From contig CALSTM010000002.1 of assembly GCA_943789275.1 (NCBI GenBank), positions 90,001 through 122,000 of the forward strand: a DNA stretch of 32,000 bases, in the 5' to 3' direction. The notes under the pieces are model-generated. The model saw nothing but the letters and a program-made list of their open reading frames with translations. It was not told the DNA's origin and did no database searches. Both the position numbers and the translations under genes were made by a program. Every line of letters begins with the position of its first letter. Position 1 is the stretch's first letter. This DNA is from Candidatus Poseidoniaceae archaeon (GTDB taxonomy: Archaea; Thermoplasmatota; Poseidoniia; Poseidoniales; Poseidoniaceae). Shown in pieces: positions 44-21,385 of this stretch.

Positions 44-4796
<4,753 letters not shown>

Positions 4797-4800
<4 letters not shown>

Positions 4801-7800
4801 CTTCGGTCCTCCAGTTCAAGACGCATGGCCACACCTAAACTCTTCATTTCGTCGAGGAGCAGCTTGAATGCGTAAGATGTTTGTACTTTGTACACTTCTG
4901 CGCCATCGCCGTGAATCGGGCTGACGTAAGTGCGTCGCTTTGGATCGTACCAAGCAATGTGACCGGATTGAGCACAGACGTACATGTCTATTCCGTCCGA
5001 TTCATCGAGCAGTCGGTCCTTGATGACCATTGATGCACCGTGTGCAATCAAACAATCACGTTCCATTTCACCGAATCGCAGACCACCTTGGCGGGCACGA
5101 CCTTCAGTTGGCTGTCGAGTGAGGATTTGAACACGGCCACGGGAACGGGCGTGAATCTTCGAGGACACCAAGTGGTGCAAGCGTTGGTAGTAGATACAGC
5201 CGATGAAAATATCAGCAGGATAAACTTCTCCAGTTTCACCGTTAATCATGGTTTCACGGCCGGTGTGAGCAAGTCCATTTCGAACAAGTCCATCACGTAG
5301 GCTGCCTTCCTTTTCTCCACGGAAAGCGGTCGCATCAATTCGGCGACCTTCCATCGAACCAACTTTACCACCAATCATTTCCAGAACGTGTGCAACGGTC
5401 ATTCGAGATGGGATAGCGTGCGGGTTGATGACCAAATCAGGGACGATTCCATCAGCAGTGAACGGCATGTCCTCAGGTTCAACAAGGCGTCCAATGACAC
5501 CTTTTTGACCGTGTCGAGATGCGAATTTATCGCCAACTTCCGGGACCTTGTGGCTTCGAACCATAACTCGGACCAAGCGGCCTGAGTCAAGGGATTCTGT
5601 AACGTAGACGTTGTCGACGTATCCCTTCTCACCGTGTCGGACGAGCATCGAGGATTCACGTCGTTCTTGTGCAAGAAGGAAAGCGCCACCAGCGGATTCT
5701 TCGAGGAAACGAGGTGGGCTGGTCTTACCGACCAATACATCTCCACCTTCGAGGTACATCTCTGGCAATGGCAATCCGTCCGCTTCGAGGTGTCGGTAGG
5801 CCTCTTCAGGTTTGAGACCCTTGACTTCTTGCAATGAGCTGCCAGGCTTTTCGATTTCTTCGACTTGACCACCAGGGAATCTACGGCGTTCTGCATTGTA
5901 GGTTCGGTTGAAGGTCGAACGTCCAAGAGCGCGGTCAACTGAGCCCTTGTTCATGATGACAGCGTCTTGCATGTTGTAGCCGTGAAGCGACATGATCGCA
6001 ACGATGAAGTTTTGCCCACCAGGACGGTCATCGAAGTGCGTCGATTCCATTGCTGCTGTTCGAGTAATGGAACGCTGTGTGTAGTGGAGAATGTGAGCCC
6101 GGGTATCGGGTCGCATTCTGTAGTTTGAACTTGGTAGACCAAGAGATTGCTTGACCATTGCTGTTCCGCCGGTAACACGAGGGGTAGAGTTGTGTTCAGG
6201 GTATGGAATCAATGAAGCACAGACACCCAAAACGAGTTGTGGGTCGATTTCACAGTGTGTGTATTCATCATCGTACAGCAGAGGCAGAGAAATATCAGCG
6301 GATTCCCAAGCACCGTTTGGCATTCGGACCTTGGCAACGAGTTTGGCTTCCGTTGCACCAGGTTCACCGAGGTTCACCCAATCAACGTTCTCGTTGGTCA
6401 ATGGGCGACCAGCGAAAGGACCGGAAGGAACTGTTTCAGGGAGGACAAACGGACGAGCGGCGATGAGAAGATCTTCTTCTTCTTCAGCATCGACCCATTC
6501 AACGACTCCATCGTTGACGAGGTCTTTGAACGTCATTTCCGAATCTCGAAGGGCTTGGAGGTGTTCTCCAGTCAAACGAGGTGCGCCATCGTAAAGGATG
6601 ACCAAAGGTCGTAGAATACGTCCCTTGTCGGTGTTGATGAAGATGTCCTTGTTTTCCTTGTCATGTCGAATCGAAACTTCAGCAGGGATCGTTCCACGTC
6701 GGCGTGCAGATTTGAAGTGGCGAACCAAGTTCTTTCCGTTCTTGTGAATACCGTAGATGTCACCGTTCACGTGGATTCGGTCACCGGAACTCCAATCTTC
6801 AAGTTCGCTGTTCACATCAAGTTCATCCAGTTGCTCACGAACTTCGACTTCGCTGATGTGTTCAGAGATGTCAATCATTTGAGCGGCGTTCTTGACCAGA
6901 CCACAGTTTTGTCCTTCTGGGGTTTCGTTTGGACACAAGCGGCCCCATTGAGTCGGGTGCAGGTCACGAGCTTCGAAGTGAGGTTGGCTTCGAACAAGTG
7001 GCGAGGTAACACGGCGCATGTGGGACAACGAAGCGAGGTAAGTTGTTCGGTCGAGCAGTTGGCTAACACCAGATCGTCCACCGACCCAGTTCCCGGTAGC
7101 CAGAGCGTGCATAATCTTGGACGTCAAAACGTCAGGTCGCAAGCAGGAAGTGATTTTCAGTTCTCGCTTGCGGTTGTGGTGGCGTTCAAGTTGGTACTTG
7201 AGGTCACGAGCAAGTTGACCGCTGGAAACGCGGAACAAGTCTTCAATCAAATCGCCGGCAAGACGAACACGCTTGTTTGCGTAGTGGTCCTTGTCGTTTG
7301 GTTCACGGTTGGTAAGCGCCATTTCGAGAACTTGACGAACGATTCGGCCGAGGAAAATAGCCTTCTTCTTACGGTCACCGGGCTGGTCTCCCAAGTGCGG
7401 AAGGAGTTCACGGTCAAGCAATTGGTTCACCCGTTGTTCACGGTATTCCTTTTGCTGGCCTGCTGCGAATTTCTTCTGCAACCATTCGTGAGCTTCATCA
7501 CGTGATTGAACAGCATACTCTTCGTTATCGTTGACTTCATTGAGGTTGGCAACGATGTACTTGAAGGTCTCAGTTGGTCCAGCAACTGTTTGGAACACTT
7601 CTTGATCGTTCTCGATACCGAGTGCACGCATGAGGAGAACAACTGGGATAGCGGTTGTTCCTGCAGTGCTGATCTTAACCATGAGCATTCCATCTCGGCG
7701 CTTTTCAACGTTGAGTGGTTTGCGCATACCGTCTTTCTGTGAGAAAATCTTTGCGACTTCTGTGCGCTTTGCGTATCGCTTATTGATTTCAACTGTTACA

Positions 7801-8408
7801 CGGTTCGGTGCAAGGTCTTCCATCGAGATGAGGACACGTTCTGTACCGTTGATGATGAAATAGCCTCCAGGGTCAAGAGGGTCTTCGCCTTTCTTTCGGA
7901 GCATGTCATCCCAAAGTGCGGAATCTTCGGTCGAAGTGGTTGGATAAAGTTGGCGCTCTCCAGCAATGTGCTTGGCGTGGAGATTACAGCGAGAAGAACG
8001 AACCATAATGGGCATGCTTCCGACTTGAACTCCAGCCTCAACAGGTGAAGGAACACCGTTGCGGGAAATCTGGAAGTCGATGGTCACCGGTGACATGTAA
8101 GTAAGCTTGCGCAGACGGCATTCCATTGGAGTGGATGGGTGTTCTGCACCGTTGGCTTCACGGATGGTTGGTTCACCGAGTTTGATGTTCTTCAAACGGA
8201 TGGTGATGTCATGGTCGACTACGTCGAGTTTGATGTAACCTCCAAGGTCATCATGAATTTCTTCATCGGTCCCAACACGGATGTTGCGAATGATTTTCTC
8301 CATACGGGAAATCGAGTTGTCTCCGGATGGGATACAATCGTCGTATGAAGCGAGTTGGTGGTTGACGAGGCTACGTTCTTTGAAAAATGATTGAATAATT
8401 TCTTGCAT
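4797..8408 (-). CDS. rpoB: DNA-directed RNA polymerase subunit B (unsplit, 1203 aa)
   Basis: Motifs GDKFASRHGQKG, ETPEGQNCGLVKN, GEMERDCLIAHGA and a C-terminal zinc-ribbon-like region. GAAGGTG Shine-Dalgarno-like motif in the 15-nt gap after rpoH. Confidence 0.97.
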
Positions 8409-8423
8409 AATTTACACCTTCCC

Positions 8424-9080
8424 TCAGTTACCCTCTACAATTAGTCGGTAGGCAACTGTTCTACCCGCAGATGGGGACTTGCGGATAACTTTCAGTACGC
8501 GGTCGGCGATCCAACCTGCAGCGAGTGGTTTGTGTTCAGGGTCTGCTGCAAGACGAGCGTTGTCTTGTGCTTCAGCAGTTTCCTTGATGACTTGAACGAC
8601 CGGGTCCGTAATGAGGATTTTCGGAAGCCATTCCTTGGCAAGTCGTGGCTCGCCGGTTTCGTCATCGGATTGAACCATTTCCCAAGGAGCGAGTTCTTCG
8701 CTCTCAATGGCAAATTGTTCTTCGACAGAGATGTTGGCGTCTCCAACCAGTTCCTGGTGAGGGACAAGGTCGTGGTTGAGTGCGTTGAAACGCATGGTGA
8801 TTTCAGGGCGATCGAAGTCATCGATAGCCTTTGCACGGATTGTGATTTTCTTGCTCTTTGATTTTGAGCGGCGACGGGAACCTTGTTCTGCGATAACAGA
8901 CATGGTGTTGGTGAATTGTTCTGAATCCTTAGAAACGCCAAGTGTGGATGCGACTTCATCAGAGGACATTGCCTTGATGTCGGTCATGTTTCGGTCTGTT
9001 GCTAATTTGTGTGCGAACTCTTCGGAGACTCCAAGCTCCATGAGTCGCTTCTTTGTTGCGCTTTTTACTACCATCCTCAT
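8424..9080 (-). CDS. rpoH: RNA polymerase subunit H (Rpo5) homolog, unusually long (218 aa): N-terminal ~100-aa module plus an RpoH core with insertions
   Basis: C-terminal half carries RpoH hallmarks: HDLVPHQELV, LPKILITDPVV and VLKVIRKSPSAGRTVAYRLIV. Sits directly upstream of rpoB. The start could be the ATG at 9080 or at 9074 (MRMVVKS vs MVVKS). Confidence 0.85.
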   Translation of the reverse strand: MRMVVKSATKKRLMELGVSEEFAHKLATDRNMTDIKAMSSDEVASTLGVSKDSEQFTNTMSVIAEQGSRRRSKSKSKKITIRAKAIDDFDRPEITMRFNALNHDLVPHQELVGDANISVEEQFAIESEELAPWEMVQSDDETGEPRLAKEWLPKILITDPVVQVIKETAEAQDNARLAADPEHKPLAAGWIADRVLKVIRKSPSAGRTVAYRLIVEGN

Positions 9081-9124
9081 ACCCCGCTCATGCCCAACTA
9101 CTCAGGCCTGTAAACCCAGTCAGG

Positions 9125-9198
9125 CGGGCCTGACGGGGTTCGAACCCGCGACCATCGGATTAAAAGTCCGACGCTCTACCTGACTGAGCTACAGGCCC
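9125..9198 (-). tRNA. tRNA-Lys (anticodon UUU), 74 nt including discriminator G; CCA not encoded
   Basis: Hand-folded cloverleaf on the minus strand: acceptor GGGCCTG/CAGGCCC, D arm GCTC-AGTCAGGTA-GAGC, anticodon arm TCGGA-CTTTTAA-TCCGA, variable TGGTC, T arm GCGGG-TTCGAAC-CCCGC. Confidence 0.9.
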
Positions 9199-9386: not shown

Positions 9387-10874
9387 GTGAAATTGAGGCA
9401 AATGGGAAACGAGGAAATCTTCGGCCCAAGGGATGCCGAACACGAAATTGGACGTTTTGAAAGGAAGGCGAAACAGGTGTTTTGGAAGACGCCGCAGAAC
9501 CGAGAAATCGACCTTCTCATTCCATCAACAGTTTACCCTCCTCGAGAAGACACAGATCTCATGGCACAAACCATCGCAAAACTACCAAAACCAGGCGCGA
9601 AACGCCTGCTCGAAATTGGATGTGGCTCTGGAGCAATTTCGGTTTTTGCCGCGCAACTTGGATTCACCGTTACCGCATGCGATATCAACCCATACGCAGT
9701 TGCTGCTAGCCGGCATGCTGCCGTAACAAACGGCGTCACATTCGAGGTTCGTGAAGGAGGTCCAGGCCCAACTAGAGACGGCACTGTCGAACAGTGGGCT
9801 GGAAGCAAACCGCATGACATCATCGTGTGGAACCTCCCCTATCTGGCCCATGACAGCGAATCTCAACTGTTGGGGCCCATGGAAGAAGCCGCCCTTCTCG
9901 ATACGGACCCGAAAGGTCTTGTTTCACGCCTACTCAAGCATCTTCAATCAAGTAAAATCCTCAGTGAAGACGGATTGGTTTTTTTACTCATTTCAAACAA
10001 TCAAAAAGGAAATATTGCCCGCAAGGAATGTTTAGCCAATGGATTTGCAGTTCGAGTTGTGGCCTCGGAAACATTCGAGGACGGGGAATGTTTGGAAGTG
10101 CTTGGCATCTGGAGACCCTATCACTCAAAGAGCATCAATTTCGTTGAAAGTATTCCATCAACCAACACGGCCTTGTTGCAATCTGACGATGACATCGGGA
10201 CTTTGCTCCATGCTGGAGTTCAATCATCAGGCCACGGTAGACGTGGACGCCCTTGGTCGCATGAAGAGCAAGCGTTTGCAGGCTCCTGGGTCCTCGATGA
10301 GATTCGAGGCGTTCCAAATCCAAACCAATTGCAATTGAGAGCAGGATTAGCCCTGCATCAGGCGATTGTCGCAATGGACATTCCGACCGAACTGGTCGCT
10401 CTCAAATGGCCAAACGATGTTTTACTTCGAATTGGGGGGGAAACGCGCAAAGTTGGAGGCGTGTTGATCGAAAGTCGTAGCCAAGGTAAAACCACCCGTA
10501 TTGTCCTCGGCATCGGATGCAACATGACAAGTAAAAACCACCACAAGAAGGAGTATTCGTTGGCCTCGATGGCTGAGTTATCAGAACATGCATCGACTGA
10601 AGAATTCCTCCCGATAATCCATGCATCGGTGGCCTCTTGGCTTGAAGATAAGGAAGGTATTGAGGCGGTAAGAAACGACAACGTTATTTCTCTTTTTGAA
10701 ACCCAATTTTTGGCAAGTATCTCCTCGCTCGGAGAACCTATCTATAGAAACTCTAAGATGCAATTTCACTCTATGAACTCCGACGGAAACATCCAACTTA
10801 TCGACCAAAATCAGCGCCTCCATCTGATCAACGATGGCGAGGATGTGGCATGGGCAAAGTTCCGACCGATTTAG
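9387..10874 (+). CDS. birA: Fusion protein: Mtq2/HemK-type SAM-dependent (glutamine-N5) methyltransferase domain + biotin--[acetyl-CoA-carboxylase] ligase (BirA) catalytic and C-terminal domains
   Basis: N-terminal half: YPPREDTDL, LLEIGCGSGAIS, DINPYAV, WNLPYL (an NPPY-type motif). C-terminal half from ~residue 245: IPSTNTAL, GRGRRGRPW, KWPNDVLL, GVLIE, GIGCNM. The ORF track start 9387 is GTG. The in-frame ATG at 9402 is preceded by GAGG and may be the true start. Confidence 0.85.
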   Translation: MKLRQMGNEEIFGPRDAEHEIGRFERKAKQVFWKTPQNREIDLLIPSTVYPPREDTDLMAQTIAKLPKPGAKRLLEIGCGSGAISVFAAQLGFTVTACDINPYAVAASRHAAVTNGVTFEVREGGPGPTRDGTVEQWAGSKPHDIIVWNLPYLAHDSESQLLGPMEEAALLDTDPKGLVSRLLKHLQSSKILSEDGLVFLLISNNQKGNIARKECLANGFAVRVVASETFEDGECLEVLGIWRPYHSKSINFVESIPSTNTALLQSDDDIGTLLHAGVQSSGHGRRGRPWSHEEQAFAGSWVLDEIRGVPNPNQLQLRAGLALHQAIVAMDIPTELVALKWPNDVLLRIGGETRKVGGVLIESRSQGKTTRIVLGIGCNMTSKNHHKKEYSLASMAELSEHASTEEFLPIIHASVASWLEDKEGIEAVRNDNVISLFETQFLASISSLGEPIYRNSKMQFHSMNSDGNIQLIDQNQRLHLINDGEDVAWAKFRPI

Positions 10875-11881: not shown

Positions 11882-13243
11882 ATGCAGGGGGAGCCAGGTA
11901 CTGAGCATAAGGCCGACTCCTCTGAAGATATTTTGAAGGAACTCGCATCGAACGAGACATCGCTCCTCGCCCTCATCAAAACGCTCCTCTCGCCGAAGAC
12001 ATTACCTCATTTACTGATGATTGTGGTTCTTTCCACTGCCCTTTACTTTGTCGCGAATTCCAACAACGGAGAAGATATTGCTGCACTCGGATTCATCTCT
12101 CTTTCTTTAGGATACGTCATAACGGCAATTTTCTCGACCAATGAAAAGGTTCGTTCTTGGATTACCATTGCCCACGAACCGGATGTATCTCAATTCAATC
12201 TTGTTCAAAAAATTAAATCAAGCATCAAAATCTGCGCCTTCCCTATTTCAGTATCTGCAGGTATTGGCATACTCATCTTGGTTCTGTTCAGCCAAGACTC
12301 AGCGACTGACCTTCCAGCCGTATTCCCAATCAGTCTCGCCTCCTTATTTGTGATCTGGGCTGTCGCTCAAGGAAGGTCGTTTAGTTCATGGGCATCTTCG
12401 CTTTCAGCGAAAAAACTACCTGAGAAACAGGCCACAACTGGAAACTTAGCCGTCATGAATGCGATTCAATTTGCCATCATCATGGCTTTGTCGCTGGCAG
12501 GAATCATCGGTTTTGAGTTCCTCTACGAGAAAGAATGGGACTTGAGCAATGCAGTTGTTTCCAATATCTTGTTTTTGGTAATCGCATCTACAGCCTACGG
12601 ATTAACTGCGTTTTGGACAAGAGACGCCCGGCGTACAGCCATGCACGATAAGGCATTGAAAAAATTCTCTCGACGATGGACTCTTTTAGCACACATCTTC
12701 GCAACGTGGCACCTCTTGACCGTATGGCGTCAACTGGTGATGTCGCAACAAACCATCGAGATTTTTGTCGAAGAAGTTCTGTTAATGATGTTCACTGTAT
12801 TCATGGCGATTTGGACACTTACCTCGCAATCCATCGGCCCAAAATTCAAACTCCTTTCGACTGAAAACGCCCTGCCTTGGGGTCTGGCCTTCGGATATGC
12901 TTACGCAGGAAGCGTTGCTATGCTTGCGACTGCTCTGGACGACATCACCTACGTTATGGTCACCGGGCACATCATCGCGTTCCTCACCATCACATGGATG
13001 CAAAGGAGTGTTCTGCTCAAGGTGCTGTCCAAGCACGATATCGACGTCACTGTACAGCGACGCATCGAAGCGCATGCATCGAAAGTCGAGGCCTCAAAAC
13101 AGACCAATGAAGAATCTCAAACCGTTGAAACCGAAAACGATGATGCTTGGCAAGAGGACAAAGACGTACAGTGGAGCGGTGAAGTTGGCAATACCATTGG
13201 CGAAGATGTCGAATGGAACGAAGTCATCGAAATGGACGACTAG
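11882..13243 (+). CDS. Hypothetical polytopic membrane protein (~10 TM) with an acidic C-terminal tail
   Basis: 453-aa ORF with many hydrophobic helices. GGGAGGAG Shine-Dalgarno motif 5 nt upstream of the ATG. C-terminal ~60 aa rich in E/D/W. Confidence 0.7.
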   Translation: MQGEPGTEHKADSSEDILKELASNETSLLALIKTLLSPKTLPHLLMIVVLSTALYFVANSNNGEDIAALGFISLSLGYVITAIFSTNEKVRSWITIAHEPDVSQFNLVQKIKSSIKICAFPISVSAGIGILILVLFSQDSATDLPAVFPISLASLFVIWAVAQGRSFSSWASSLSAKKLPEKQATTGNLAVMNAIQFAIIMALSLAGIIGFEFLYEKEWDLSNAVVSNILFLVIASTAYGLTAFWTRDARRTAMHDKALKKFSRRWTLLAHIFATWHLLTVWRQLVMSQQTIEIFVEEVLLMMFTVFMAIWTLTSQSIGPKFKLLSTENALPWGLAFGYAYAGSVAMLATALDDITYVMVTGHIIAFLTITWMQRSVLLKVLSKHDIDVTVQRRIEAHASKVEASKQTNEESQTVETENDDAWQEDKDVQWSGEVGNTIGEDVEWNEVIEMDD

Positions 13244-14157
13244 GACTCGCCACGGATACCTGAAAGAAGCGTAACCACTCGAATGGTGTCCTCTAAATCT
13301 TCGCTGACTCGAGCACCGAGGATAACTTGAGCGTTCGGATCCAACGCTTCTGTGAACATGTTGGCAACTTCATCAACTTGCCCTATCGTCATACCAATAC
13401 CTCCTTCGACTTGTATCAAACATCCTTGAGCACCACCAACATCCAATTCAGCAAGGGGTGCCATGAGAGCAGAGTGCAGAATGCCCTCTGGGTCGTCAGG
13501 TCGTCCTGTGCCGACCAAAAGCGTCGCTTCTCCTTCCTTTTCCACAATAGCTCTCAAATCCATGAGGTCAAGATTGATGAGCCCCATTCGCATCAAGGTT
13601 CGTACCAAACCTTCGACTAAATCTTCGACCCATTCAGCACCCATTTGCCATGCTTTGCCCCGCTCTCGCGCCTGACGAGCCAGCCGTTCTAAGGAGAGTC
13701 GGACCGTCACATGAGCAATGTTTTCCAGTCGATGAAGGCCTTCTTGGGCGATTTGTGCACGGGTCTCTTGAACATCAAAAGGAAGGGCTGCAACGGCGAC
13801 AACAATCGCTCCAGATTGCCGTGCTTGGCGAGCAAACTCATGTGCCGCTCCTGTACCGGTTCCGCCGCCAAGTCCAGTCAGTAAAAGGACCAATTCAACC
13901 GGCTCAAGTACGGTCCGAGCAAGAGATGAATATCCCCGCATCCTTTGCTCAGCAAGCGGTGGAAGTGCCGCACAACCAACCGAGTCAAGGGCGTGACCAA
14001 GGCGCAAGAGGTGTGCAGAACCGCTGTCGGTGAAACTTGCGTCATCAGCGTCGACTAAGCAAAGATCGGCGTTGCCTTCACAACGTAAATGAGCGCCTTT
14101 CGCCCACGAACAGCCCAAGCCGCCCACACCAGCGATGAGGATTTGGGAGGCTTCCAT
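13240..14157 (-). CDS. Divergent FtsZ/tubulin-superfamily GTPase, 305 aa, lacking a C-terminal linker and tail
   Basis: Tubulin signature GLGGGTGTGAA. ALPFDVQE corresponds to FtsZ PFxFEG. T7-loop-like GLINLDLMDLRAIV conserves the N, D, D positions. The C-terminal domain pattern (GAQGCLIQVEGG...VILGARV...IRVVTLLSGI) is colinear with FtsZ. The G1 box is atypical (GVGGLGCSWA). Confidence 0.75.
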   Translation of the reverse strand: MEASQILIAGVGGLGCSWAKGAHLRCEGNADLCLVDADDASFTDSGSAHLLRLGHALDSVGCAALPPLAEQRMRGYSSLARTVLEPVELVLLLTGLGGGTGTGAAHEFARQARQSGAIVVAVAALPFDVQETRAQIAQEGLHRLENIAHVTVRLSLERLARQARERGKAWQMGAEWVEDLVEGLVRTLMRMGLINLDLMDLRAIVEKEGEATLLVGTGRPDDPEGILHSALMAPLAELDVGGAQGCLIQVEGGIGMTIGQVDEVANMFTEALDPNAQVILGARVSEDLEDTIRVVTLLSGIRGES

Positions 14158-20617: not shown

Positions 20618-21385
20618 ATGGACTACACAGGAATGACCGTCGTTCAACTGAAAACGCTCTGTAGAGAACGTGGACTCCGGGTTTCCGGAAACAAAGATGA
20701 AGTCATCATCCGATTGATGGAGAACGACGAATCACTGGCCCCAGTTCAAACCTATGCTGCACCTGCACCGCAACCTATGCCAATGTATCAAACGCAACCG
20801 ATGGGCGGCTATGTTCAGCCTCAGCCCCGATACATCCAAGTGCAAAGCCAAAAAGAGGAGATGTCAAAGACCATTGGTGGGTTTGTCATCCTCTACGCCT
20901 TCTTCAGGTTGTTTTGGGCCATGGTATTCTCGATTGGTATCGGAGGCAGCGATGAATCTTGGCTCCTTTCAATTCCAGCATTCCTTATTGGAATTGGTTT
21001 CCTCGTTGGTGGAGCAATACTTTACTCAGGATACCGAAACGGAGTTTACTTGACCTTGGGTGTATTGGTTGTATCTGGAATGTTGAGTGTAATGTTCCAC
21101 GGCGACAATCCGAACCCGGTGTCTGTAGCGTGGGGCGATCAGATGATTTTGACATCCATTTTTTGTTCATTTATTTGCATGGCACTCGTTGCTCTTCCAA
21201 TATTCATGTCACAGCTTAAACCAGGATGGCCGGCCAATATTGAGCGCCTCTTGGGACAAGATTCCACCACGAGTTCCGGAAAAGACAAGGTTCAATGCGC
21301 ACATTGCAGTGCAGCACTCCAAGTCCCAGCGGGGTACTCTGGCAAGATTCAATGCCCGTCGTGCCAGAAAGAAATGCGTGTTTAA
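20618..21385 (+). CDS. Membrane protein with an N-terminal SAP domain and a C-terminal MJ0042-type zinc ribbon
   Basis: SAP consensus MTVVQLKTLCRERGLRVSGNKDEVIIRLME. A P/Q-rich linker, ~4 hydrophobic helices, and a C-terminal CAHC...VPAGYSGKIQCPSC. Confidence 0.75.
   Translation: MDYTGMTVVQLKTLCRERGLRVSGNKDEVIIRLMENDESLAPVQTYAAPAPQPMPMYQTQPMGGYVQPQPRYIQVQSQKEEMSKTIGGFVILYAFFRLFWAMVFSIGIGGSDESWLLSIPAFLIGIGFLVGGAILYSGYRNGVYLTLGVLVVSGMLSVMFHGDNPNPVSVAWGDQMILTSIFCSFICMALVALPIFMSQLKPGWPANIERLLGQDSTTSSGKDKVQCAHCSAALQVPAGYSGKIQCPSCQKEMRV

What the first reader, a model, noticed from the sequence alone, without database searches (positions are those of the whole stretch)
8775..9080. RpoH is ~2.5x normal size: an N-terminal ~100-aa module plus two insertions in the Rpo5 core
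Archaeal RpoH is normally ~75-85 aa. Here the recognisable core (HDLVPHQ...YRLIV) occupies only residues ~103-218 and itself has extra segments. These are ~39 aa between HQELV and LPKI, and ~23 aa before the VLKVIR block.

Residues 1-66 form a separate helical-looking unit ([26 protein letters not shown]...), followed by a strongly basic linker (SRRRSKSKSKKITIRAKA). The L-x-x-LG(V/I)-x-E-x-x-A-H-x-LA pattern resembles helix-hairpin-helix-type small nucleic-acid-binding modules.
Basis: partly seen in the sequence, partly recalled or inferred. Interest (0 to 1): 0.65.

Follow-up and report, generated by a model that had tools for sequence, protein, structure and literature searches.

The report
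Marine archaeal RNA polymerase carries tethered modules
In the abundant ocean archaea called Marine Group II, two neighbouring RNA polymerase subunits (H/Rpo5 and A''/Rpo1C) each carry the same small, previously undescribed helical domain on a flexible basic tether, although textbooks say archaeal subunit H has no N-terminal domain.

Summary
The gene (8424-9074, minus strand) encodes a 216-aa RpoH. The conserved start is the ORF's third codon.

The protein has three parts:
- a 65-aa five-helix N-terminal module
- a roughly 35-aa basic, disordered tether
- an Rpb5_C core with two net insertions of about 21 and 23 aa

The long form is real. It is 216 aa in all 80 Poseidoniaceae loci examined, with a conserved SD-like motif upstream. 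There is no conserved internal Met. The module is under the same purifying selection as the core (pN 0.09 against pS 0.70). Thalassarchaeaceae have the same layout at 195 aa.

The module also heads at least 12 unrelated proteins. These include a defence-type ATPase, a TFIIB-repeat protein and ORFan proteins next to integrases.

The module matches no Pfam family, PDB sequence or Foldseek target, so helix-hairpin-helix identity remains unproven.

My best reading is that the two tethered modules sit at the polymerase lower jaw and contact downstream DNA. That is analogous to Sulfolobus Rpo13, the eukaryotic Rpb5 jaw domain and bacterial alpha-CTDs. A protein-docking role is the main rival. I found no prior description.

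The parts
8424..9074 (-). rpoH (Rpo5) coding sequence from the conserved start, 216 aa plus stop
   Evidence: It is 216 aa in 80/80 Poseidoniaceae loci. Rpb5_C is above the Pfam threshold.
8880..9074 (-). N-terminal module, residues 1-65. Five predicted helices (6-13, 18-25, 30-34, 38-45, 52-71) and two LGVS turns.
   Evidence: AF2 with MSA gives pLDDT ~83. pN 0.092 against pS 0.70. It is a family of 113 representative clusters. No Pfam or PDB match.
8775..8879 (-). Tether, residues 66-100. It has a basic run (SRRRSKSKSKKITIRAKA, net +9) followed by the conserved acidic DDFDRPEIT stretch, and is predicted disordered.
   Evidence: It is conserved (pN 0.104). The T-I and A-x-x-D positions are nearly invariant across both families.
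8427..8774 (-). Rpo5/Rpb5_C assembly domain, residues 101-216, including the two insertions
   Evidence: pLDDT 86-90.
8628..8744 (-). Expanded segment 1, residues 111-149, between the HQELV strand and LPKI. The net gain is ~21 aa over M. jannaschii RpoH. The model shows a helix at 117-127 and a beta-hairpin at 134-145.
   Evidence: pN 0.188, so it is looser than the core but still constrained.
8502..8585 (-). Expanded segment 2, residues 164-191. It replaces the canonical GAKPGD loop between helix 2 and the VLKVIR strand, with a net gain of ~23 aa.
   Evidence: In Sulfolobus this loop holds Rpo5 P58/G60, which Rpo13 contacts (PMC3479171).
9081..9085 (-). Shine-Dalgarno-like GGGGT, 6 nt upstream of the conserved ATG
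   Evidence: A conserved GGGG[T/A] or GAGGGGT lies at the same place in the related loci.
9123..9198 (-). tRNA-Lys(UUU) directly upstream, same strand, 48 nt from the rpoH start
   Evidence: The same arrangement occurs in the Thalassarchaeaceae locus L090.
44..1603 (-). rpoA'' (Rpo1C), 519 aa, about 114 aa longer at the N-terminus than solved archaeal A'' subunits
   Evidence: residue 135 aligns to residue 21 of S. acidocaldarius Rpo1C.
1409..1603 (-). Paralogous copy of the module at the N-terminus of RpoA'' ([30 protein letters not shown]...). A basic tether follows in residues 65-100 (net +4).
   Evidence: BLASTP gives 55% identity over 42 aa, E 9e-13. The module HMM scores 105 bits. These are the only two copies in the window. 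Tether charge.
1603..8408 (-). rpoB (4797-8408, unsplit, 1203 aa) and rpoA' (1603-4800), which lie between the two module-bearing genes in one operon
   Evidence: The same order, with Pfam assignments, is seen in L090.

Best explanation
SHOWN. Poseidoniales RpoH is a three-part protein. It has a ~65-aa all-helical N-terminal module and a ~35-aa lysine/arginine/serine-rich disordered tether. These are followed by a canonical Rpo5 assembly domain enlarged by two lineage-specific insertions. RpoA'' (Rpo1C) carries a paralogous module and its own basic tether. RpoA'' is the subunit that RpoH binds in all solved archaeal polymerases. Each polymerase therefore has two copies of the module. The arrangement predates the split between Poseidoniaceae and Thalassarchaeaceae, and it is under strong purifying selection.

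INFERRED. RpoH and A'' form the lower jaw, and RpoH cross-links to downstream DNA at +10 to +20. The two modules are therefore tethered at the DNA-entry face. There, their basic N-terminal arm (VKSATKKR), their two helix-LG(V/I)(S/D)-helix motifs and the basic tethers would make non-sequence-specific contacts with downstream duplex DNA. This would stabilise or guide the DNA during open-complex formation and early elongation.

This job is done by Rpo13 and its lysine-rich tail in Sulfolobales, and by the Rpb5 N-terminal 'guard rail' domain in eukaryotes. The layout of two small helical domains on flexible linkers resembles the two alpha-CTDs of bacterial polymerase. Insertion 2 replaces the Rpo5 loop that Rpo13 contacts, so it probably remodels the same crevice between Rpo5 and the clamp head.
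For: Architecture and reality of the long form:
- Conserved start, SD-like motif and 216-aa length in 80/80 loci.
- pN 0.09-0.10 for module and tether, against pS ~0.70, equal to the core.
- MGIIb RpoH of 195 aa has the same layout.
- AF2 with MSA models the module at pLDDT ~83, the tether below 50 and the core at 86-90.
- The core matches RpoH/Rpb5 C-domains by Foldseek and profile search.

Second copy:
- Window RpoA'' residues 1-42 are 55% identical to RpoH residues 3-44, E 9e-13.
- The A'' N-terminal extension is ~114 aa.
- It is also present in Thalassarchaeaceae locus L090.

Charge: the tether is +6 to +9 over 20 aa, while the module is about -2 and the core about -8.

Location logic, from the literature:
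- H is strongly associated with A''. The lower jaw consists of A', A'' and H, and H cross-links to DNA at +10 to +20 (PMC2847245).
- Rpo13 sits in the Rpo5/clamp-head crevice, contacts Rpo5 P58/G60 and binds dsDNA through a Lys-rich tail. The Rpb5 N-domain is described as a guard rail for entering DNA. The authors predicted analogous factors in other archaea (PMC3479171).

Module partners elsewhere are largely nucleic-acid-related: a TFIIB repeat, C2H2 and zinc-ribbon proteins, and a defence ABC ATPase.
Against: There is no experimental or statistical evidence that the module binds DNA.
- It has no significant similarity to any HhH or HTH family, by sequence or by structure.
- The folded module is net acidic.
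- A ~35-residue tether could reach many sites on the enzyme, so the position at the jaw constrains the target only loosely.
- The extreme conservation of the first 11 residues across unrelated proteins is unusual for a generic DNA binder. It fits a specific partner at least as well.
- Where the A'' N-terminus lies relative to downstream DNA was not modelled here.
- Equating insertion 2 with the Rpo13-contact loop rests on sequence alignment and residue numbers from a paper, not on a structural superposition.
Confidence: 0.5

Rival explanations
1. The module is a protein-protein docking or 'address' domain rather than a DNA binder. It binds a specific partner: a site on the polymerase, a chromatin or transcription factor, or another copy of itself. 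Unrelated proteins that carry it are thereby brought to the same partner or to the polymerase.
For: - The same module, in both RpoH-type and RpoA''-type flavours, heads at least 12 unrelated architectures. Most are ORFan proteins in ORFan-rich or integrase-flanked contexts.
- The first ~40 residues are nearly invariant across them, including non-basic positions A21, H22, L24, A25 and D27.
- The folded module is net acidic.
- It has no detectable relation to DNA-binding families.
- One family keeps only the first ~40 aa.
Against: - No partner is identified.
- Domain shuffling of a generic DNA-binding module among nucleic-acid proteins explains the same distribution.
- The basic N-terminal arm and basic tether next to the module are typical DNA-contacting elements.
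Confidence: 0.3
2. The module and insertions are lineage-specific decorations that serve folding, assembly or stability of the polymerase. For example, they could compensate for other changes in the lower jaw or help A''-H assembly. They would have no direct role on nucleic acid or in recruitment.
For: - Both decorated subunits are direct neighbours in the enzyme (PMC2847245).
- Compensatory extensions of small subunits (Rpo6) have been proposed for other archaeal lineages (PMC13257274).
- The insertions are modelled as packed on the core at high confidence.
Against: - An assembly role does not explain why the same module heads unrelated non-polymerase proteins.
- It does not explain why the module is separated from the core by a long disordered basic tether.
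Confidence: 0.12
3. The N-terminal domain is the archaeal counterpart, or ancestor, of the eukaryotic Rpb5 N-terminal jaw domain. On this reading the protein is a full-length Rpb5 (216 aa against ~210-215 aa).
For: The total length and two-domain layout resemble Rpb5 (chains of 205-215 aa).
Against: - No match to the Pfam Rpb5 N-terminal family at E <= 1.
- Foldseek alignments to Rpb5 chains cover only ~112-117 columns with TMt 0.27-0.30, which is the C-domain alone.
- The module is modelled as all-helical, whereas the Rpb5 N-domain is a mixed alpha/beta fold (my own background knowledge, not checked here).
- The module is confined, as far as seen, to Poseidoniales-type sequences, and it is paralogous to the RpoA'' N-terminus.
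Confidence: 0.02
4. The long ORF is an annotation artefact. Translation would really start near residue ~100, giving a normal-sized RpoH.
For: The window sequence has a Met at ORF residue 96.
Against: - That Met is L, S, R or D in relatives.
- The upstream 100 codons show pN/pS as low as the core, with synonymous sites saturated.
- The start and SD-like motif are conserved in the 80 loci.
- The same module is found as the N-terminus of 113 protein clusters.
Confidence: 0.01

Closest known systems
Canonical archaeal RpoH / Rpo5 (e.g. M. jannaschii 1hmj, S. acidocaldarius 7ok0_H, T. kodakarensis 4qiw_H)
   Same: The C-terminal 116 aa are a bona fide Rpb5_C domain. The HxLVPxH, LPKI, DPV and (R/K)xSxxAGxxxxYRLV motifs are conserved, the fold matches, and the gene sits in the same place ahead of rpoB-rpoA'-rpoA''.
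   Different: It is 216 aa against 75-84 aa. It adds an N-terminal folded module and a basic tether, and two insertions of ~21 and ~23 aa. It falls below the NCBIfam equivalog cutoff (43 bits against 83). The literature states that archaeal H has no N-terminal extension (PMC3906176 abstract; PMC2847245; PMC3479171).
Eukaryotic Rpb5 (RPABC1)
   Same: It has a two-domain layout of similar total length and the same C-terminal assembly domain. Its N-terminal domain sits at the lower jaw beside entering DNA.
   Different: The N-terminal domains are unrelated. There is no Pfam Rpb5_N hit, Foldseek aligns only the C-domain, and the module is an all-helical 65-aa unit on a disordered tether rather than a rigidly packed ~140-aa domain.
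Rpo13 of Sulfolobales
   Same: It is a small helical element with a lysine-rich disordered tail at the Rpo5/clamp-head crevice. It binds downstream dsDNA non-specifically (PMC3479171). That paper predicted analogous factors in other archaea. Insertion 2 of this RpoH replaces the Rpo5 loop that Rpo13 contacts.
   Different: Rpo13 is a separate subunit, not a fusion. No sequence similarity was seen: PDB-wide searches with the protein and with the module profiles returned no Rpo13 chain. The analogy is functional and inferred.
Bacterial RNA polymerase alpha C-terminal domain
   Same: There are two copies per enzyme of a small (~65-80 aa) helical domain. Each hangs on a flexible linker from a core subunit and is free to reach DNA or regulators.
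   Different: The alpha-CTDs are C-terminal, on two identical subunits, and at the upstream face. Here the modules are N-terminal, on two different subunits, and at the downstream face.
(HhH)2 and helix-turn-helix DNA-binding domains
   Same: The module is five short helices with two repeats of helix-LG(V/I)(S/D)-helix about 32 residues apart. Invariant G15, A21 and L24 fit the spacing of both HhH and classical HTH motifs.
   Different: No significant match to any such family by Pfam, PDB sequence profile, hhalign or Foldseek. The module is currently a sequence orphan.

Membership tests
RpoH/Rpo5 (Pfam PF01191 RNA_pol_Rpb5_C) | Domain match above the curated threshold | tested here: met
   35.5 bits against a cutoff of 23.5, residues 147-214. 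A profile of the family aligns residues ~97-193 of the profile to the whole of 1hmj.
RpoH/Rpo5 | Fold of the Rpb5 C-terminal / subunit H domain | tested here: met
   Foldseek places the model on 7oqy_H, 9bct_H and 8cro_H with E 5e-5 to 2e-4 and TMt 0.68-0.74.
RpoH/Rpo5 | Gene position at the head of the rpoH-rpoB-rpoA'-rpoA'' operon | tested here: met
   The same order, with Pfam assignments, is seen in L090.
RpoH/Rpo5 | NCBIfam equivalog PRK09570 score above the cutoff | tested here: not met
   43.2 bits against a cutoff of 83. Only the C-terminal part aligns because of the insertions. This reflects divergence and insertions, not a different family.
Eukaryotic full-length Rpb5 | N-terminal Rpb5 jaw domain (Pfam RNA_pol_Rpb5_N) | tested here: not met
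   No hit at E <= 1. Foldseek alignments to Rpb5 chains span ~112-117 columns at TMt ~0.28, which is the C-domain only.
(HhH)2 domain superfamily | Significant profile or structure match to an HhH family (e.g. HHH_5, RuvA domain II, Rad51-N, alpha-CTD) | tested here: not met
   HHH_5 matched 1 of 22 members at E 0.19. hhalign probabilities were 3.4%, 0.1% and 0.1%. The only structural hint was AGOG at E 7.5, obtained from a low-confidence model. Sensitivity was low: templates were single sequences, and the model could not be cut to the module alone.
(HhH)2 domain superfamily | Two helix-hairpin-helix motifs related by pseudo-twofold symmetry, joined by a connector helix | tested here: inconclusive
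   AF2 secondary structure is H-turn-H, short H, H-turn-H, with LGVS at both turns. Coordinates could not be compared to templates, and the same pattern fits HTH motifs.
Rpo13 | Sequence similarity to Sulfolobales Rpo13 | tested here: not met
   PDB-wide phmmer/hmmsearch at E <= 10 with the full protein and with the module profiles returned no Rpo13 chain.
Rpo13 | [quoted passage not shown] | not testable with these tools
   Needs EMSA or a structure of the MGII enzyme.
CusF-like metal-binding protein (a name given by one source) | CusF family score above the cutoff | tested here: not met
   Pfam CusF_Ec scores 14 bits against 27, and NCBIfam PRK09838 scores 24 bits against 143. Both fall on the low-complexity basic tether. 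The match is spurious.

The most novel reading that the evidence does not exclude
The module is a shared 'address tag' of the Marine Group II transcription machinery.
- The host polymerase displays two copies, on Rpo5 and Rpo1C.
- Mobile elements or viruses of these archaea have captured both flavours of the module to place their own proteins at the polymerase or at its partner.
- At least one defence-type ABC ATPase (NsnB/AriA/GajA-like, P0150) carries the module as an integrated decoy or sensor for such hijacking.

This would be a new layer of host-parasite conflict centred on an archaeal RNA polymerase appendage.
Probability: 0.15. Interest if true: 0.85.

Novelty: new variant of a known kind. 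Interest (0 to 1): 0.62.

Why it matters
Marine Group II archaea are among the most abundant archaea in the surface ocean and remain uncultured, so their molecular biology is inferred entirely from sequence.

[quoted passage not shown] This order-wide exception shows that an archaeal lineage independently equipped the lower jaw of its polymerase with extra domains. It did so twice, on two adjacent subunits, using one duplicated module.

That is a third, independent solution to the task met by Rpo13 in Sulfolobales and by the Rpb5 jaw domain in eukaryotes. It echoes the tethered alpha-CTDs of bacteria.

It defines a new ~65-aa domain family absent from Pfam. It gives concrete constructs for testing how downstream-DNA handling can be modulated. 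The module's presence on mobile-element-like and defence-like proteins also hints at polymerase-centred conflicts in an ecologically dominant group.

Tried and rejected
1. Internal start near residue 100. Rejected: the Met is not conserved, and the upstream codons are under strong purifying selection.
2. Start at the first ATG (9080). Rejected in favour of 9074.
3. CusF-like annotation of the linker. It falls below thresholds and lies on a low-complexity stretch.
4. Homology of the module to the Rpb5 N-domain. No support.
5. Assigning the module to HhH or HTH families. Everything was negative or insignificant. I tried Pfam on 22 members, two PDB profile searches, and hhalign against Rad51-N, alpha-CTD, sigma-70 region 4 and RuvA domain II.
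6. Foldseek for the N-domain. The full-length model returns only Rpb5/RpoH hits. The low-confidence single-sequence model returned nothing significant. The first, run without an alignment, was wasted.
7. Viral origin of the non-polymerase carriers. No confirmed hits in IMG/VR contigs, no INPHARED hit for P0225 and no PHROG hits for neighbours. Only indirect hints exist: integrases next to P0205, ORFan-dense contigs, and one member from a 0.1-0.22 um Tara fraction.
8. Whether Marine Group III or other Thermoplasmatota share the module. This could not be settled. The genome scan returned only Poseidoniaceae among its top 80, and a divergent RpoH (P0133) sits on an 891-bp unnamed contig.
9. The TFIIB-repeat carrier (P0219) has only one relative, so it is a rare architecture.
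10. Literature. Seven full-text searches found no description of this feature. One paper on the Rpb5 fold could not be opened.
Full report
**What is in the window**

The finding lies in an ORF at 8424..9080 on the minus strand (218 aa). A tRNA-Lys(UUU) sits directly upstream at 9123-9198. Downstream are an unsplit rpoB (4797-8408, 1203 aa), rpoA' (1603-4800) and rpoA'' (44-1603). Close relatives are named as Poseidoniales/Poseidoniaceae, that is Marine Group IIa archaea.

**Is it RpoH, and is it long?**

Pfam Rpb5_C matches residues 147-214 above threshold (35.5 bits against 23.5). The NCBIfam RpoH equivalog matches the same part but below its cutoff (43 against 83).

A profile built from the family aligns the whole C-terminal ~116 aa to M. 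jannaschii subunit H (1hmj, E 2e-7) and to the Sulfolobus, Thermococcus and Pyrococcus Rpo5 chains. An AlphaFold2 model built on a 33-sequence alignment gives pLDDT 86-90 for residues 103-216. Foldseek puts that part on RpoH/Rpb5 C-domains (7oqy_H E 5e-5; TMt 0.68-0.74 for archaeal chains).

Solved archaeal RpoH chains are 77-84 aa, so this protein is about 2.6 times the normal size.

**The true start**

In all 80 related genome loci the ORF beginning MVVKS is exactly 216 aa. A GGGG[T/A] or GAGGGGT motif lies 5-9 nt upstream of that ATG. The ATG two codons further upstream in the window (9080) is replaced by non-start codons in most relatives.

In an exhaustive search of 1.84 billion representative proteins with residues 1-102, most of the 113 hits align query residue 3 to protein residue 1. 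I therefore place the start at 9074 and number residues from there.

**Is the N-terminal part really coding?**

I compared 77 clean orthologues codon by codon. Synonymous sites are saturated everywhere (pS 0.68-0.76). Non-synonymous differences by region are:

| Region | pN |
|---|---|
| Module | 0.092 |
| Tether | 0.104 |
| Three core blocks | 0.059-0.092 |
| Two insertions | 0.175-0.188 |

The only internal Met near residue 100 (ORF M96) is L, S, R or D in relatives.

**Anatomy**

- **Residues 1-65.** The model has five helices (6-13, 18-25, 30-34, 38-45, 52-71) at pLDDT ~83. The turns after helices 1 and 4 are both L-G-V-S, about 32 residues apart. G15, A21, L24 and, in the family at large, V3, K4, S5, T7, K8, K9, L11, H22, A25 and D27 are invariant or nearly so.
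- **Residues 66-100.** This stretch is predicted disordered (pLDDT <50 for 69-80 and 94-102). It starts with a run of net charge +9 in 20 residues (+6 to +9 across homologues). The module is about -2 and the core about -8. The tether is nevertheless as conserved as the folded parts.
- **Residues 101-216.** This is the Rpo5 domain. Relative to 1hmj, the MGIIb-weighted family profile has an 11-residue insertion before LPKI and a 13-residue insertion after the DPV helix. Poseidoniaceae add a further 9-10 residues at each site. The net gains here are therefore ~21 and ~23 aa.

Canonical RpoH already has about 18 residues there.

In the model, insertion 1 lengthens the first helix and adds a beta-hairpin (134-145). 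Insertion 2 extends the second helix (158-177) and adds a loop.

**Age**

Thalassarchaeaceae (Marine Group IIb) RpoH is 195 aa, with the same module, tether and shorter insertions. The architecture therefore predates the split of the two Poseidoniales families. I could not determine whether Marine Group III or other Thermoplasmatota have it.

The window's own RpoA'' begins [43 protein letters not shown].... BLASTP of the two window proteins gives 55% identity over 42 residues, E 9e-13.

An HMM of the module scores 105 and 101 bits on these two ORFs and on nothing else in the six-frame translation of the window. In RpoA'' the module is followed by a basic stretch (residues 65-100, net +4). Residue 135 aligns to residue 21 of S. 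acidocaldarius Rpo1C, so the extension is about 114 aa.

A Thalassarchaeaceae locus has the same operon (tRNA-Lys, rpoH of 195 aa, rpoB, rpoA', rpoA'' of 525 aa). Its RpoA'' starts with the same module. Every Poseidoniales polymerase therefore carries two tethered copies, of two diverged subtypes, and the duplication is old.

**The module elsewhere**

Of the 113 representative clusters, 14 continue as RpoH and 12 as RpoA''. Many others are truncated or frameshifted fragments of these from low-coverage assemblies. At least a dozen are different proteins:

- P0146 (413 aa, zinc-ribbon-rich).
- P0150 (851 aa). It has a C2H2 finger, the module at residues 91-150, and an ABC-type ATPase. The ATPase matches AAA_15/AAA_21 and PADLOC models NsnB (2e-38), AriA, AbiLi, GajA and Old.
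- P0161.
- P0205, flanked by two tyrosine-recombinase genes.
- P0184, with two tandem modules.
- P0225 (1292 aa), on a contig of small ORFan genes. One cluster member comes from a Tara 0.1-0.22 um fraction.
- P0196/P0229.
- P0231.
- P0214 (MORN repeats).
- P0219/P0391, with a TFIIB cyclin repeat.
- A five-cluster family that keeps only the first ~40 residues.

Both module subtypes occur among these proteins. Their neighbourhoods are dominated by genes with no Pfam or PHROG match. I found no confirmed copy in IMG/VR contigs and no INPHARED match for P0225. A mobile-element setting is therefore suggested but not shown.

**What fold is the module?**

This question remains open.

- No Pfam family matches. 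The best results were HTH_PafC and Sigma70_r4_2 in 2 of 22 members at E 0.04-0.06, and HHH_5 in 1 of 22 at E 0.19.
- Two profile searches of all PDB sequences gave only chance-level hits.
- hhalign of the family profile against single sequences of Rad51-N, alpha-CTD, sigma-70 region 4 and RuvA domain II gave probabilities of 0.1-3.4%.
- Foldseek with the full-length model is dominated by the core, and nothing attributable to the module appeared among the listed hits.
- The low-confidence single-sequence model gave only E 7.5 to an HhH-type glycosylase.

The spacing G-h-(S/D)-x-x-x-A-x-x-h-h fits the HhH consensus. The pattern (E/Q)-I-A-x-x-h-G-(I/V)-(S/D)-x-x-T/A fits the classical HTH equally well.

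**How it most likely works**

Established knowledge from the literature:

- Subunit H is strongly associated with A''. The lower jaw consists of A', A'' and H. H cross-links to downstream DNA from +10 to +20 in pre-initiation complexes and is needed for open-complex formation (PMC2847245).
- In Sulfolobus, the crevice between Rpo5 and the clamp head is filled by Rpo13. Rpo13 contacts Rpo5 P58/G60 and binds dsDNA non-specifically through a lysine-rich disordered tail.
- In eukaryotes, the Rpb5 N-domain occupies that place as a 'guard rail' for entering DNA.
- The Rpo13 authors stated that no archaeon has such a domain on Rpo5, and they predicted analogous factors elsewhere (PMC3479171).

By alignment, the Sulfolobus G-A-K-P-G-D loop holding those residues is exactly where insertion 2 sits.

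My inference is that Poseidoniales solved the same problem by fusion. Two modules with basic N-terminal arms hang on basic tethers from the two lower-jaw subunits and contact downstream duplex DNA. Insertion 2 remodels the Rpo13 crevice. Architecturally this resembles the two alpha-CTDs of bacterial polymerase.

I give this reading about 0.5. The architecture is shown. The DNA contact is inferred.

The main rival, at about 0.3, is that the module is a protein-docking tag. Supporting it are the near-invariant first 40 residues across unrelated carriers, the net acidic charge of the fold, and the lack of similarity to DNA binders.

A purely structural or assembly role (about 0.12) does not explain the other carriers. 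Homology to the Rpb5 N-domain and a mis-called start are effectively excluded.

**Novelty**

Seven full-text searches found no description of an extended RpoH or RpoA'' in Marine Group II. A 2026 survey of archaeal small-subunit variation deals with Rpo6 and Rpo8, not Rpo5. Papers read here explicitly say archaeal H lacks N-terminal extensions.

I class the finding as a new variant of a known kind: a known subunit with a new, unclassified domain family and a new two-subunit tethered arrangement.

Noticed in passing
window 44-1603 (-), especially 1409-1603: RpoA'' is 519 aa, about 114 aa longer than solved archaeal A'' subunits. It begins with a paralogue of the RpoH N-terminal module followed by a basic tether. 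The same is true in Thalassarchaeaceae (L090 17399-18976).
   Followed up: yes
L081 1012-3567 (P0150): This 851-aa protein has a C2H2 zinc finger, the RNA-polymerase-type module at residues 91-150, and an ABC ATPase. The ATPase matches defence-system models (PADLOC NsnB 2e-38, AriA, AbiLi, GajA, Old). It may be a defence protein carrying a copy of a polymerase appendage.
   Followed up: partly
L085 1611-2717, L086 567-1673 (P0205); L082 1884-5762 (P0225); L084 10001-11242 (P0146); L087 186-1163 (P0231): Unrelated ORFan proteins are headed by the same module. P0205 lies between two Phage_integrase genes. The others sit among short genes with no Pfam or PHROG hits, which suggests mobile elements or viruses of Marine Group II. 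No hallmark viral gene was found.
   Followed up: partly
L083 314-895 (P0219); L091 291-908 (P0391): These small proteins combine the module (RpoA'' subtype), a charged linker and a single TFIIB cyclin repeat (Pfam E 1e-5). Only two clusters exist, so the architecture is rare.
   Followed up: partly
window 9123-9198 (-) and 9075-9122: tRNA-Lys(UUU) lies 48 nt upstream of the rpoH start on the same strand in both Poseidoniales families. No separate promoter is evident in the short spacer, so the polymerase operon may be co-transcribed with the tRNA, or its promoter may overlap the tRNA.
   Followed up: partly
window 20618-21385 (+): This 255-aa protein has an N-terminal SAP domain (Pfam E 6e-11, residues 2-37), a proline/glutamine-rich linker, hydrophobic segments that look like membrane spans (from reading the sequence), and a C-terminal zinc ribbon. 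It is unrelated to the polymerase module.
   Followed up: no
window 9387-10874 (+): This 495-aa protein fuses a PrmA-like methyltransferase domain to a biotin/lipoate ligase (BPL_LplA_LipB) domain. It is divergently placed next to tRNA-Lys and rpoH. The same fusion in the same position occurs in the Thalassarchaeaceae locus L090 (8327-9712).
   Followed up: no
window 8775-8900 (RpoH residues ~58-104): Weak CusF-like matches fall on the basic tether (NCBIfam 24 bits against a cutoff of 143). They explain why one public source names relatives 'RpoH / Cu-Ag efflux protein CusF'. The match is spurious.
   Followed up: yes
P0184 (186 aa): This protein has two tandem copies of the module (two matched stretches) and nothing else recognisable.
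   Followed up: no
window 13240-14157 (-): A short FtsZ/tubulin-family protein (305 aa) sits near the polymerase operon. The synteny with the cytochrome b and CCG/Fe-S genes is shared with the Thalassarchaeaceae locus L090.
   Followed up: no
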